64,000 nt of DNA from assembly GCF_036507355.1 (NCBI RefSeq), contig NZ_AP027877.1; one strand, given 5' to 3'. Position numbers: made by a program. Positions 34,401-40,400 of the stretch are shown piece after piece. Numbering within the stretch: the first letter of the stretch is position 1; every line of letters starts with the position of its first letter. Source of the DNA: Escherichia coli. Lineage in GTDB: Bacteria > Pseudomonadota > Gammaproteobacteria > Enterobacterales > Enterobacteriaceae.

Positions 34401-37400
34401 TAGTATCAGTTATTTCTCTGATCTCTTTAGTCATTTGGGAGTCGACCTCAGAGAACCCGATTCTTGATCTCAGTTTGTTTAAGTCCCGTAATTTCACCAT
34501 TGGTATTGTGAGTATCACATGCGCGTATTTATTTTACTCTGGAGCGATCGTCCTTATGCCGCAGTTATTCCAGGAAACGATGGGGTATAATGCGATATGG
34601 GCCGGACTTGCTTATGCGCCCATCGGCATCATGCCACTATTAATTTCACCTTTGATAGGACGTTATGGCAACAAAATAGACATGCGGTTGTTAGTGACAT
34701 TTAGTTTTTTGATGTATGCGGTTTGCTATTACTGGCGTTCTGTGACATTTATGCCAACGATTGATTTTACAGGTATCATTTTGCCGCAGTTTTTTCAGGG
34801 ATTCGCCGTTGCCTGTTTCTTTTTACCCTTAACAACGATTTCGTTTTCAGGCTTGCCAGATAATAAATTTGCCAATGCCTCGAGTATGAGTAATTTTTTT
34901 CGTACCTTGTCAGGATCAGTTGGTACATCGTTGACAATGACGCTGTGGGGGCGACGCGAATCGTTACACCATAGTCAGTTGACAGCAACCATCGATCAAT
35001 TTAACCCTGTATTTAATTCATCGTCACAAATTATGGATAAATACTATGGTTCGCTTTCAGGAGTTCTTAATGAAATTAATAATGAAATAACCCAGCAGTC
35101 ACTTTCTATTTCTGCAAATGAGATTTTCCGTATGGCGGCTATTGCTTTTATCTTACTTACGGTTTTGGTTTGGTTTGCGAAACCGCCGTTTACAGCGAAA
35201 GGCGTTGGGTGATGGTAAAAGCAGGGGGTTATAGCGGGTAAGACCGGGGATCTTAAGTCTGCGCCATCGGCAGCATCGCTCACCCAGGGAAAGGATGGCG
35301 ATGCTGCGTTGAAATGTTATTAACGGCCTTTTGCCAGATATTGATTCATCTCTTCTTCCGGCACCATTCCACCTCCCGTCGCCCACACCAGATGAGTGGC
35401 ATTACGCAGTTGTTCTGCGCTGAAACCGTGCATCAGTTGGTAACTTACTGATGCACACACGCGCTGAGGTCCGGCCATACCCGCCAGTGCCGAAGGTTCA
35501 AGACGAATACCTTCTTCCTGCGCCAACCCAAGAATTACAGTGCGGTTAGATGGCGGAAAGCCGGTCAAGAGTGTTTGGGGAGGTGGGGAAGGCGGTGATT
35601 CTGCATTTGCTCCACAACCAATACAATTTATAAAGACCTTGGCTAAGCATAAAAAAGCTATTTTTGGGTTTGAACCTTATGGATCAACTATGCAAGTAGT
35701 TGAGTTTGACTTGTCTGAGATTGATAAGGTTGTGGAAAAAATTTCACAGTCTTGCAATTGGAAATAACAAAAAAATCTCATATGAACCCAGTTGGCTCTG
35801 GGTTTTTTATTTCTGTTGTCTATAATGTATTCATAATTTTTACTGGGATACAGTGCACATAAAATCCCAATTGCGGTAGGACGATAACTGGATCAGGTGG
35901 AGGCACTTACGCAAGAATTGATAGTATTAATTTGCATAGAGCAACGCGAAGTTATTTATAAATTAACTGATATAGAGTACTAGATGTAATCCGAACCGGT
36001 TATGATTCGTCACCAATTTTGCAAGAGGCTGGGTAGGTAAGCTATTGGATACCGTAGGTAGCAAAAATATAGAAGGAGGGGAAGAATTGCTAAACTCGAG
36101 CATTCACTTAAATCTGAGTTATTTATTGTTAAGATATAATACACTTTGAATAATAGAGGCTATATGACAACGAAAATAAGCAAAGATGATAAACATCTGC
36201 TTGATCCTTATTTAAAATGGCTTGCAAACAAGAAGCTAATGGTTGCCTTCTGGTTGGTGCTAATGATATGTGGTTGCATATATGCATATATAGAAAATGA
36301 TTGGTCACTTCTTCCCCGATTCGGATGTTTAGGCATAATGATTGGCACATTGCTTACTCTTTCTCCGCTTTTTGCAGAAGGTATCTACCTATCAAGGCGA
36401 GAAGCATGAATCGCCACGGATAATCTAGACACTTCCGAGCCGTTGATAATACTGGTTTTCATATTCTGTCGGTGACATCTGATCGCTGGAACCATGCCGA
36501 CGCTTACTGTTATAAAACATTTCGATGTAATCAAAAATATCGCTGCGGGCTTCTTCCCGCGTTCCGTAGATCTTTTTCTTTATCCGTTCGCGTTTCAACA
36601 ACTGGAAAAAGCTTTCTGCAACCGCATTATCATGGCAGTTACCGCGACGGCTCATGCTGCCATCCAGGCCGTGTGATTTCAGGAACGACTGCCACTCATG
36701 GCTTGTGTACTGACTGCCCTGATCCGAATGAACCAGCACCTGTTTTTGGGGATTACGGCGCCATACAGCCATCAGCAGTGCGTTCAGGACAATGTCCTTT
36801 GTCATCCGGGATTGCATGGACCAGCCGATAATTTTGCGTGAGAACAGATCAACAACCACGGCAAGATACAGCCAGCCTTCGTGGGTCCTGATGTAGGTTA
36901 TGTCCGTTACCCAACGCTTATCCGGAGCATCCGGATTGAACTGTCGCTGGAGCCTGTTGGGCGACACGATACTGGCCTCGCCTTTACGTGCCCGCGGGCT
37001 CCGGTATCCGACCTGAGCCTTTATCCCGACACGTTTCATCAGTCGCCAGACTCTGTTCACTCCGCACTGTTGCCCGCTGTCCCGCAGATCCAGATGGATT
37101 TTGCGATAACCATAGACGCATCCCGATTCCAGCCAGAACTGTTTAATCTGCCCTGTCAGCCTCAGGTCTGCCTGATGGCGTTGTGAATGCGGCTGCTGAA
37201 GCCAGGCGTAAAAACCACTGGGATGAACATCCAGCACCCGACAGAGCAGGCGAACAGGCCAGCAACAGGTGTTGTCACGGATAAAGGCGTACCTCAGTCG
37301 GACAGCTTTGCGAAGTACGCCGCGGCTTTTTTTAATATGTCCCGTTCGTCGGTAACCCGCTTCAGCTCTTTCTGGAGACGGCGGATCTCGGCCTGAGCAT

Positions 37401-40400
37401 CTGACTGTTCTTTATTAGCGGAAGAATCCGGACCGTACTTCTTTATCCAGGCGTAAAGGCTGTGGGTGGTGATATCGAGACGTGTTGCAACGCTGGCAAC
37501 AGAATAACCGCGATCAACAACCTGTTTGACTGCTTCAATTTTAAACTCTTCGGGATAACGCTTACCGCTCATGGGCACCTCTCTTTAAGCCATCTTAAAT
37601 GACTCTGAGGTGTCTGTTAAACCCGTGGCGATTCAGGAAGAGTTCGAAATACGCAGCGAAATTGTTGGAATTCAAATTAGTTGATCTTGACGTTCTTAAG
37701 CGAACATACTTCTTTTTTGCAGACCGTTATCTGGCAGATGTAGTGAAGTTTGAAAACCTATGTGGTGATTTAGAGCATACATCGCAGAAGGCTAGGGATG
37801 AAAAAATTAAGGCCATGCAATTAAAGACAAACGACCCTGAAATTCAGTTAGGTGTTTGTATTTTTGTTTGTTTCAGGTTGCGAAACAACCTTTTTCATGG
37901 ACCAAAATGGCGTTATTTGCTTGATGGGCAAGAGGATTTGCTCTTAATTGCCGGAAATTTTATACATTCTATTCTATTACAGGTGCCTAGTAGAGATGGC
38001 TGGGAATTCAAGAATATTTTAACTTCTACTGATTAGCTTTGATTTTCCATAATCAACCCGCCATAATCATGTCATCGGAGCCTGAACAACTCCGGTGACT
38101 TCTGCGCTTTGAGGGGACTCAAAGTGCAAACGACAATCAGAACACCTTTCAACCAGTCACAGATGCAGAAATGCACCTGCAATATCTTGCATCCAACGTT
38201 TGACCTCTGCGGAGGTGAAGCGTGAACCTCCCACAAGACGGCATCAAATTACATCGCGGTAACTTCACTGCTATCGGTCAGCAGATCCAGCCTTATCTGG
38301 AGGAAGGCAAATGCTTTCGCATGGTGCTTAAACCGTGGCGGGAGAGACGCAGTCTTTCCCAGAATGCACTCAGCCACATGTGGTACAGCGAAATCAGTGA
38401 ATACCTCATCAGCAGGGGTAAAACGTTCGCCACTCCAGATTGGGTAAAAGATGCTCTCAAACACACTTATCTCGGTTATGAAACCAAAGAACTGGTTGAT
38501 GTCGTAACCGGTGAGATCACCACTATCCAGTCGTTACGCCATACCTCCGATCTTGATACCGGAGAGATGTATATCTTCCTGTGTAAGGTTGAAGCCTGGG
38601 CGGTGAATATTGACTGCCACCTGACTATTCCGCAGAGCTGCGAGTTCCAGCTGCTGCGCGACAAGCAGGAGGCGTAATGGCTACACCGCTTATTCGTGTC
38701 ATGAACGGACACATCTACAAAGTACCAAATCGTCGTAAGCGTAACCCTGAGCTGAAGCCATCCGAAATACCAACTCTGCTCGGATATACCGCCAGCCTGG
38801 TTGATAAAAAATGGTTGCGACTGGCAGCAAGGAGGAATCATGGCTGATTTGAGAAAAGCAGCGCGTGGTCGGGAATGCCAGGTAAGAATCCCTGGCGTAT
38901 GTAATAGCAATTCTGAAACGTCTGTACTGGCACATATCCGGCTGGCTGGATTGTGCGGTACCGGTATCAAACCGCCAGACCTGATTGCCACCATCGCATG
39001 TTCTGCCTATCACGACGAAATCGACCGCCGCACACATTTTGTCGATGCTGAGTATGCAAAAGAATGCGCGCTGGAAGGTATGGCGAGAACACAGGTTATC
39101 TGGCTGAAAGAGGGGGTTATTAAGGCGTGAATACTTACAGCATCACATTACCCTGGCCTCCGAGCAATAATCGCTATTACCGCCATAATCGCGGGCGCAC
39201 GCACATCAGCGCAGAGGGGCAGGCATACCGCGATAACGTCGCCCGAATCATTAAAAACGCAATGCTGGATATCGGCCTGGCTATTCCTGTGAAAATCCGC
39301 ATTGAGTGTCACATGCCGGATCGCCGTCGCCGTGACCTGGATAATCTGCAAAAAGCTGCTTTTGACGCACTTACCAAAGCAGGTTTCTGGCTGGATGATG
39401 CTCAGGTCGTTGATTACCGCGTTGTGAAGATGCCGGTTGTCAAAGGTGGAAAGCTGGAACTGACCATCACTGAACTGGGAGATGAATGATGTTTGAGTTT
39501 TATACGGCAGAACTTCTTCGCCACCGCTGGATGCGCCTGCGCTTATATCGTTTCCCCGGTTCTGTTTTGACCGATTACCGAATACTGAGGAATTACGCCA
39601 AAACCCTGACAGGAGCAGGAGTATGAAGTCAGAGATAACAATCAACTAATACTGTTTTGTTGATTTTTGCTTGTAATTGGCGTTCTGGTCTGATTTTTGT
39701 GGAGTAAGTTGATGCGTGATATTCAGATGGTTCTTGAGCGTTGGGGAGCGTGGGCGGCTAATAATCATGAAGATGTGACCTGGTCGTCCATTGCCGCCGG
39801 TTTTAAGGGATTAATTCCTTCAAAAGTAAAATCTCGCCCACAATGTTGTGACGATGACGCGATGATCATTTGCGGGTGCATGGCCCGTCTGAAAAAGAAC
39901 AACAGCGATTTGCATGATTTATTGGTGGACTATTATGTCGGCGGCATGACTTTTATGGCGCTTGCACGTAAGCATGGGCGATCTGATTGTTGGGTTGGCA
40001 GGATGCTCCAGAAAGCTGAGGGCGTAGTGGAGGGTATGCTGATGGTGTTGGATCTCCGATTGGAGATGGATGCTGATTGTTCGAAATAATTAAAGGAAAA
40101 GTTGCTGTCTGATTGTCATTAGTCTAACATTTTAAATGTTGGAATCGCAACGTAGTTATTATCATATAACAGCTTGTTTCCTGATTTAGCCAGCCTCCCC
40201 AAAGGCTGGTTTTTTTCTAATAAGTATTATTTCGGGTAGGGATTTTATTGTTTAACCCATAATAATTCATTGACATTGAATCCCAACTTTTGAGCGGTTC
40301 GCACATAGTCTGCTTTTACTTTATCTGGAATAGTTGGGGTCCTTGCCAGAATCCATAGGTATTCTCTGTTCGGACCACTGACAAGAGCATACTTATACTC

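What the first reader, a model, noticed from the sequence alone, without database searches (positions are those of the whole stretch)
36407..37635. IS3-family element with no target-site duplication marks a rearrangement junction
The element has clean inverted repeats (TGAATCGCCACGG…) and an orfA/orfB frameshift structure, but the flanking triplets differ (GCA versus GGA) and ORF fragments on the two sides do not join in frame. That fits IS-mediated deletion or recombination between two IS copies rather than simple insertion, which would explain the loss of the prophage early region and the dsd genes.
Basis: seen in the sequence. Interest (0 to 1): 0.4.

Follow-up and report, generated by a model that had tools for sequence, protein, structure and literature searches.

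The report
Insertion sequence beside a small deletion
An intact, well-known mobile element (ISEhe3-like, IS3 family) sits in a decaying prophage and has lost 2.2 kb of DNA next to one of its ends; this is ordinary, and it is not the cause of the larger loss of the prophage early region and dsd genes, which has its own IS-free junction 0.9 kb away.

Summary
Window 36407-37635 is an intact 1,229-bp IS3-family element, named ISEhe3 by a depositor. It has TG...CA inverted repeats, orfA/orfB with an A7G -1 frameshift site, and no target-site duplication (GCA vs GGA). Its flanks are pieces of two different genes.

In at least 8 uninterrupted relatives the two flanking genes lie 2,193 bp apart. A near-identical prophage (GCA_905398585.1, 100% identical downstream) carries the same IS right end followed by GCA and the rest of the left-hand gene. 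That is the simple insertion with a 3-bp GCA duplication. The window therefore derives from a simple insertion followed by a 2,196-bp deletion flush with the orfA-proximal IS end. The deletion arose either by a transposase-mediated adjacent deletion or by a second copy plus homologous recombination.

This deletion removed only nin-region cargo. The loss of the prophage early region and dsd genes maps to a separate junction at 35523-35526. There the last ~209 bp of dsdA join the middle of a VasI/TagO-like gene through 2 bp of microhomology, with no IS. A metagenome contig carries the IS at the same site with that gene intact on its 5' side.

This is a known phenomenon of low interest.

The parts
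36407..37635 (-). Intact ISEhe3-like IS3-family insertion sequence, 1,229 bp, transposase on the - strand
   Evidence: 99.9% identical to full-length copies in many E. coli genomes. Termini are identical in 6 other copies. NF033516 transpos_IS3 hit. The exact OrfA sequence is named 'ISEhe3 transposase A' in UniRef.
36407..36444 (+). Terminal inverted repeat at the orfB-distal end (IRR); starts TGAATCGCCACGG
37598..37635 (-). Terminal inverted repeat at the orfA-proximal end (IRL); the 2,196-bp deletion abuts this end
37294..37572 (-). orfA (92 aa from ATG 37572; HTH-type IS3 OrfA)
37326..37333 (-). A AAA AAA G slippery site for the programmed -1 frameshift
   Evidence: PGAP annotates the same join in identical copies.
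36425..37334 (-). orfB frame (DDE/rve catalytic part). OrfAB is 382 aa, with one substitution (E304D, nt 36662) relative to the common allele
36164..36406 (+). First 81 codons of a 134-aa predicted membrane protein gene ('gene A'), truncated by the IS; the stop TGA is the first 3 nt of the IS
37636..38036 (+). Last ~133 codons of a 195-aa hypothetical gene ('gene B'); its first 187 nt are missing
35524..35767 (+). 3' half of a VasI/TagO-like 164-aa gene, normally located just after phage replication gene P/ren
35523..35526 (.). IS-free deletion junction: dsdA 3' remnant joined to the middle of the VasI/TagO-like gene, with a shared CA at 35524-35525. This junction, not the IS, accounts for the loss of most of dsdA, the neighbouring dsd/csc genes, attR and the prophage early region
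35320..35525 (-). Remnant of the 3' end of dsdA (about 209 bp)

Best explanation
An ISEhe3-like IS3-family element inserted into a small membrane-protein gene ('gene A') in the nin-region cargo slot of a lambdoid prophage integrated at argW. The insertion made the usual 3-bp duplication, GCA. Later, 2,196 bp immediately outside the orfA-proximal IS end were deleted. The lost DNA comprised the right copy of GCA, the rest of gene A, a Bro-N/P22AR-C gene, a 66-aa gene, a DNA polymerase III theta homologue and the first 187 nt of 'gene B'. The IS stayed in place without a duplication, between two unrelated gene fragments.

The insertion-then-deletion order and the exact extent are shown by comparison with sister sequences. 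The chemistry is inferred. I favour a transposase-driven adjacent deletion, in which the IS end is one breakpoint and a nearby target is the other. This has been documented for IS150 and other IS3-family elements.

The much larger loss of dsd (or csc) genes plus the prophage early region is a separate event of illegitimate recombination at 35523-35526. It does not involve an IS end.
For: 1) The element is intact and typical.
2) Other copies show 3-bp duplications (CGG in L007, CTT in L010), so the ends are correctly defined and a 3-bp duplication is expected.
3) In 8 uninterrupted loci (L013-L019, L021) the left flank ends at locus position 6243/6244 and the right flank starts at 8437. The left flank is 99.7-99.9% identical and the right flank up to 99.4%.
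4) L028 (GCA_905398585.1) reads [last 76 nt of the IS]|GCATTTAGTTTTGG..., which is gene A continuing. It is then 100% identical to window 37636-39782. The window lacks L028 positions 77-2272, which is 2,196 bp.
5) L026 is 100% identical over 4,042 nt, carries the 2.19-kb segment, and its contig breaks exactly at the gene A site.
6) The left junction ...GAAGCA|TGAATC recurs in L022-L025.
[quoted passage not shown] An ISEhe3 insertion associated with a 24.5-kb deletion has been reported in an IncC plasmid (PMC6872532).
8) The separate junction is shown by the K-12 alignment ending at 35528 inside dsdA, the prophage alignment starting at 35524, the shared CA, and L023 keeping the intact 5' part of the gene with the IS already present.
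Against: The GCA duplication is a composite. The left junction comes from the window and L022-L025, and the right junction from L028. No single assembly shows both, because short-read contigs break in the IS.

One-step adjacent deletion and two-copy recombination leave identical products, so the favoured chemistry is not demonstrated. IS3-family elements move mainly by copy-out-paste-in, which does not itself delete donor flanks.

The predicted intermediate with a second copy in gene B was not found. That search needed an exact protein match, so this is weak negative evidence.
Confidence: 0.55

Rival explanations
1. Two-step recombination. A second copy of the same IS inserted in direct orientation at GGA in gene B, 2.2 kb away. 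RecA-dependent recombination between the two copies then deleted the interval, leaving one hybrid copy flanked by GCA (from copy 1) and GGA (from copy 2).
For: The product is exactly as predicted: the left flank GCA is the known duplication of the gene A insertion, and the right flank begins with GGA. The IS is multicopy in many genomes, with up to 21 places per genome. 4 of 6 sampled copies lack duplications, so post-insertion rearrangement is common.
Against: No assembly with an IS in gene B was found; the exact product of the predicted truncated gene B is not on record (weak evidence). The model needs a second hit within 2.2 kb in the right orientation. In the LTEE, IS150 deletions followed a single earlier insertion (PMC11708052).
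Confidence: 0.35
2. First reader's full reading. The IS junction is where the prophage early region and the dsd genes were lost, by IS-mediated deletion or IS-IS recombination spanning them.
For: The IS lacks a duplication and lies within 0.9 kb of the truncated chromosomal flank.
Against: The 883 bp left of the IS are colinear with intact prophages and end at a distinct junction at 35523-35526 that carries no IS sequence. The DNA missing at the IS is a defined 2,196-bp cargo segment. L023 has the IS at the same site with the upstream gene intact.
Confidence: 0.03
3. The IS inserted at the same moment as the deletion, or into a pre-existing one. Examples are insertion into a break during the deletion event, or a chance illegitimate deletion that happens to end at the IS terminus.
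For: PMC11708052 proposes such duplication-free insertions for IS5 and IS481. This prophage has at least three IS-free deletions, so illegitimate deletion is frequent here.
Against: The simple-insertion state, with the IS right end followed by GCA and intact downstream DNA, exists in a prophage 100% identical downstream. Insertion therefore preceded the deletion. A random deletion ending exactly at the last IS base is improbable.
Confidence: 0.05
4. No deletion at all. The flanks come from two different phages joined by mosaic recombination, and the IS inserted at the seam.
For: Lambdoid nin-region cargo is highly mosaic. In complete E. coli genomes, gene A and gene B were first seen in different prophages, S21 and LR-50.
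Against: At least 8 loci carry A and B together in the same order with identical spacing. L026 and L028 are 100% identical to the window on the right and include the missing segment.
Confidence: 0.02

Closest known systems
ISEhe3 (IS3 family, IS51 group; ISfinder entry AF327445, first described on the Pantoea agglomerans pPATH plasmid)
   Same: The OrfA sequence is exactly one that UniRef names 'ISEhe3 transposase A'. The element shows IS3-family architecture, TG...CA ends and 3-bp duplications in other copies. It is widespread on Enterobacterales plasmids, including 47 Pantoea records. PMC10425158 lists ISEhe3 as IS3 family, IS51 group, with a 3-4 bp duplication.
   Different: Not compared directly with the ISfinder reference sequence. 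This copy has one private substitution (E304D) and lacks its duplication.
IS150-adjacent deletions in the E. coli long-term evolution experiment (rbs and other loci)
   Same: An IS3-family element, first a normal insertion with a 3-bp duplication and then a deletion that starts exactly at one IS end. The result is a duplication-free IS between non-contiguous sequences (PMC11708052).
   Different: A different IS (IS51 group, not IS150 group). The order of events is inferred here from natural isolates and metagenomes, not from a time series. The deleted DNA is prophage cargo.
Variable argW-dsdCXA island and the CPS-53/KplE1-type argW prophage of E. coli K-12
   Same: Same chromosomal site: emrKY-evgAS on one side and argW-yfdC-mlaA on the other. 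It has an IntS-type integrase next to argW, and torI at the far end in intact relatives.
   Different: The window's prophage is a lambdoid/myovirus-tailed type like that of strain LSC52, with four internal or terminal deletions. dsdA is reduced to about 209 bp, and dsdX/dsdC (or csc) are absent.

Membership tests
IS3 family insertion sequences | Length about 1.2-1.5 kb with imperfect terminal inverted repeats ending 5'-TG...CA-3' | tested here: met
   1,229 bp. 38-nt inverted repeats, with the outer 13 nt perfect, TGAATCGCCACGG...CCGTGGCGATTCA.
IS3 family insertion sequences | Two overlapping ORFs (orfA, orfB) in the 0/-1 phases with an A-rich slippery site giving an OrfAB fusion | tested here: met
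   A AAA AAA G at 37333-37326. A -1 shift gives a 382-aa OrfAB. PGAP annotates a 'programmed frameshift' in identical copies. Frameshifting itself was not assayed.
IS3 family insertion sequences | DDE (rve) transposase matching the family model | tested here: met
   NF033516 transpos_IS3: orfB scores 337.8 bits against a cutoff of 160; orfA matches profile positions 1-85.
IS3 family insertion sequences | 3-4 bp target-site duplication | tested here: not met
   This copy has GCA vs GGA. The family trait is met by other copies (CGG, CTT) and by the composite of sister junctions for this same insertion (GCA on both sides). The absence here is explained by the adjacent 2,196-bp deletion.
ISEhe3 (named IS) | At least 95% amino-acid or 90% nucleotide identity to the ISfinder reference (AF327445) | not testable with these tools
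   The only evidence is a depositor's name on the identical OrfA and the group assignment in PMC10425158. ISfinder is not available.
IS-adjacent deletion (IS retained, one breakpoint at the IS terminus) | A prior simple insertion at the same site, followed by loss of DNA contiguous with one IS end and loss of the duplication | tested here: met
   L028 shows IS|GCA plus intact downstream DNA. The window lacks exactly the next 2,196 bp. The left junction is shared with L022-L025.
IS-adjacent deletion (IS retained, one breakpoint at the IS terminus) | Catalysed by the transposase and not by host recombination between two copies | not testable with these tools
   The two routes give identical products. 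The exact-match search for the two-copy intermediate was negative.

The most novel reading that the evidence does not exclude
The deletion was made in one step by the ISEhe3 transposase, as an intramolecular attack of the orfA-proximal end on a target 2.2 kb away. If so, public assemblies already hold the natural series needed to study adjacent deletion by an IS51-group, copy-out-paste-in element: the empty site, the simple insertion with the GCA duplication, and the deletion derivative.
Probability: 0.45. Interest if true: 0.2.

Novelty: already known. Interest (0 to 1): 0.1.

Why it matters
It matters little beyond correct annotation. The IS is a known, widespread element, and duplication-free IS copies beside deletions are textbook.

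The useful outcome is a corrected history of this locus. The argW prophage decayed through at least four separate deletions, and only one of them (2.2 kb of nin-region cargo) is tied to the IS. The loss of D-serine (or sucrose) utilisation genes and of prophage immunity/replication genes should not be attributed to IS activity.

The case also shows that sister short-read assemblies and metagenome contigs can recover the pre-deletion state of an IS junction.

Tried and rejected
1) Redefining the IS ends to find a hidden 3-4 bp repeat. Rejected: six other copies end at the same bases, and two of them carry clean 3-bp duplications.
2) Looking for a second IS copy in the window. None was found.
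3) Testing whether the IS next to gene A in strain S21 is the same element, which would make the window a direct derivative. It is a different IS3-family element with no DNA match.
4) Searching complete E. coli genomes for the same arrangement. No record covers either the dsdA/VasI-like junction or both IS flanks.
5) Exact-product look-ups: the right-hand ORF, a hypothetical IS-in-gene-B intermediate and the window's EmrY allele. Nothing was on record.
6) Look-up of the full VasI/TagO-like protein, to find the left contig of GCA_905398585.1. The protein is too common (more than 10,000 blocks), so this was uninformative for ordering events.
7) Literature search for '1229 bp' with 'IS3 family'. 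No hits.
8) Considered a surrogate-end or one-ended transposition of the unit 35524-37635. Rejected because the sequence at 35524 does not resemble the IS terminus and the segment is colinear with its native prophage context.
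Full report
**What is at the coordinates**

Window 36407-37635 is a 1,229-bp element bounded by 38-nt imperfect inverted repeats. The outer 13 nt, TGAATCGCCACGG, are perfect. The minus strand carries orfA (ATG at 37572, 92 aa) and an overlapping orfB in the -1 frame. The heptamer-plus-G site A AAA AAA G lies at 37333-37326. A -1 slip there yields a continuous 382-aa OrfAB ending at 36425.

OrfB alone scores 337.8 bits on NCBIfam NF033516 'IS3 family transposase', whose cutoff is 160. OrfA matches the N-terminal part of the same model. The element is 99.9% identical over its full length to copies in other E. coli chromosomes and plasmids. 187 records hold a full-length copy, and RefSeq annotates them as 'IS3 family transposase, programmed frameshift'. 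It is also widespread on Enterobacterales plasmids, including Pantoea.

The only difference from the common allele is nt 36662, which gives E304D outside the catalytic motifs. The exact OrfA sequence carries the UniRef name 'ISEhe3 transposase A'. ISEhe3 is listed as IS3 family, IS51 group, with a 3-4 bp duplication (PMC10425158). I could not compare the element with the ISfinder reference, so the name rests on a depositor's label.

**The missing duplication is real**

The bases outside the ends are GCA on the left and GGA on the right. Six other copies end at exactly the same nucleotides. Two of them carry perfect 3-bp direct repeats (CGG, CTT), and one of those is a plain interruption of an AraC-family gene. 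The ends are therefore correctly placed and a 3-bp duplication is expected. Four of the six sampled copies also lack one, so duplication-free copies of this IS are common.

**What the flanks are**

- The left flank (35524-36406) is 99-99.9% identical to a stretch of lambdoid prophages. It contains the 3' half of a 164-aa VasI/TagO-like gene and the first 81 codons of a 134-aa predicted membrane protein, 'gene A'. The IS's first three bases, TGA, supply the stop codon.
- The right flank (from 37636) begins 187 nt into a 195-aa hypothetical gene, 'gene B'. It continues into ybcN, ninE, ybcO, rusA, ylcG and Q.
- Gene A ends on a complete codon at 36406, while gene B's frame resumes two bases into the flank. 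More importantly, they are different genes.

**The uninterrupted locus**

An exact-protein look-up of gene A returned ten loci. Eight of them (L013-L019, L021) show the same module: P/ren, VasI-like gene, gene A, Bro-N/P22AR-C gene, 66-aa gene, DNA polymerase III theta homologue, gene B, ybcN. In all eight, the window's left flank aligns up to locus position 6243/6244 and the right flank from 8437. That places 2,193 bp between them. One of these loci (L019) lies next to dsdC-dsdX and torI, which is the same chromosomal site.

**The ancestral insertion**

A look-up of the window's exact YbcN-like protein found three contigs from the same prophage lineage.

- L026 (GCA_021425525.1) is 100% identical to window 37636-41677 (4,042 nt). 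It carries the 2.19-kb segment upstream, and its contig stops exactly at the gene A breakpoint.
- L028 (GCA_905398585.1) begins with the last 76 nt of the IS, followed directly by GCATTTAGTTTTGG.... That is gene A continuing, preceded by GCA. L028 is then 100% identical to window 37636-39782.
- The left junction ...GAAGCA|TGAATCGCC is found in the window, in a Logan contig of the same lineage (L022, 2 mismatches in 7,679 nt) and in three metagenome contigs (L023-L025).

Together these give ...GCA[IS]GCA..., an ordinary insertion with a 3-bp duplication. Relative to that state, the window lacks L028 positions 77-2272, or 2,196 bp, starting at the first base outside the orfA-proximal (IRL) end. 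The caveat is that the two junctions come from different assemblies, because short-read contigs break in the IS.

**Mechanism**

Shown: insertion first, then loss of DNA contiguous with one IS end, with the IS retained.

Inferred: how the loss occurred. Two routes give the same product.

1. A transposase-mediated adjacent deletion.
2. Insertion of a second, directly oriented copy at GGA in gene B, followed by homologous recombination.

I favour the first, roughly 55:35. One reason is the close precedent of IS150. All 14 duplication-free IS150 deletions in three long-term evolution experiment populations followed an earlier insertion at the same site (PMC11708052). The other reason is that the predicted two-copy intermediate is not on record. 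That second point is weak, since the look-up needs an exact product. An ISEhe3 insertion associated with a 24.5-kb deletion has also been reported on an IncC plasmid (PMC6872532).

**The larger loss is a different event**

Against K-12, the window is colinear from evgS through emrKY and into the last ~209 bp of dsdA, ending at 35528. It matches K-12 again only at intS, argW, yfdC and mlaA (54468-58163). The prophage homology starts at 35524. The two alignments share only CA at 35524-35525, and no IS sequence is present.

Intact argW prophages such as the one in strain LSC52 run in this order: torI, early left operon, repressor, cro, O, P, ren-like gene, cargo, ybcN ... tail, acyltransferase, intS, argW. 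A single deletion from within dsdA to the middle of the VasI-like gene therefore removes the neighbouring chromosomal genes, attR and the whole early region.

This junction lies 882 bp from the IS, and the DNA in between is native prophage sequence. L023 carries the IS at the same site with the 5' half of the VasI-like gene intact. The IS junction therefore does not explain the loss of the early region and dsd genes.

What exactly was lost on the chromosomal side is uncertain. Genomes with the lineage's common EmrY allele mostly have dsdA, a dsdX remnant and cscRAKB, not dsdXC. No complete E. coli genome in the collection shares either junction.

**Context**

Compared with LSC52, the window's prophage has two further IS-free internal deletions, with junctions at 50135-50138 and 51102-51114. 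The prophage has no repressor, replication genes or most tail genes, so it is a dead remnant. The IS-linked deletion has no obvious functional consequence.

**Verdict**

This is a known element showing a known behaviour, and its interest is low.

Noticed in passing
window 35523-35526: IS-free deletion junction. The last ~209 bp of dsdA are joined to the middle of a VasI/TagO-like prophage gene through 2 bp (CA) of microhomology. This is the real site of loss of the dsd/csc genes, attR and the prophage early region.
   Followed up: yes
window 50135-50138 and 51102-51114: Two more IS-free internal deletions relative to the intact argW prophage of E. coli LSC52. One removes about 4.2 kb, from the middle of the major capsid gene to the tail sheath gene. 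The other removes about 7.4 kb, from the tail assembly gene to ymfQ, with a 13-nt overlap at the junction.
   Followed up: partly
window 38038-38195: A sequence of about 125-160 nt just upstream of ybcN. In relatives it recurs upstream of ybcN and upstream of Bro-N/P22AR-C genes (82-97% identity). It looks like a module-boundary repeat where nin-region cargo is exchanged.
   Followed up: no
window 40245-43004: Moron cluster between Q and the lysis genes: a Blc-type lipocalin lipoprotein (40245-40769, - strand), a YbgA/DUF1722-like protein (40962-41921) and an AraC-family YdeO-like regulator (42264-43004).
   Followed up: no
window 35524-35767; loci L030-L039: The 164-aa VasI/TagO-like gene, which PGAP names 'type VI secretion system-associated protein TagO', is a very common lambdoid cargo gene. 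It sits directly after replication gene P/ren and is listed in more than 10,000 blocks of the collection. The T6SS name looks doubtful in this context.
   Followed up: partly
L001 6454-8678; L020 7808-10032: In S21-type prophages the same cargo slot after gene A holds a BstA_C-domain protein and a different IS3-family element. The slot appears to collect both defence-type cargo and insertion sequences.
   Followed up: no
loci L040-L049 (downstream of emrY): The common EmrY allele of this lineage is usually followed by intact dsdA, a 72-aa dsdX remnant and cscRAKB (sucrose genes). The ancestor of the window may therefore have lost csc genes and not dsdC/dsdX.
   Followed up: partly
window 36662: This IS copy has a private A (others have C). 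It changes transposase residue 304 from E to D, outside the predicted catalytic residues.
   Followed up: partly
window 53196-54320: An acyltransferase-family gene on the - strand lies between tail-fibre remnants and the IntS-type integrase next to argW. This is the position where argW phages carry O-antigen modification genes.
   Followed up: no
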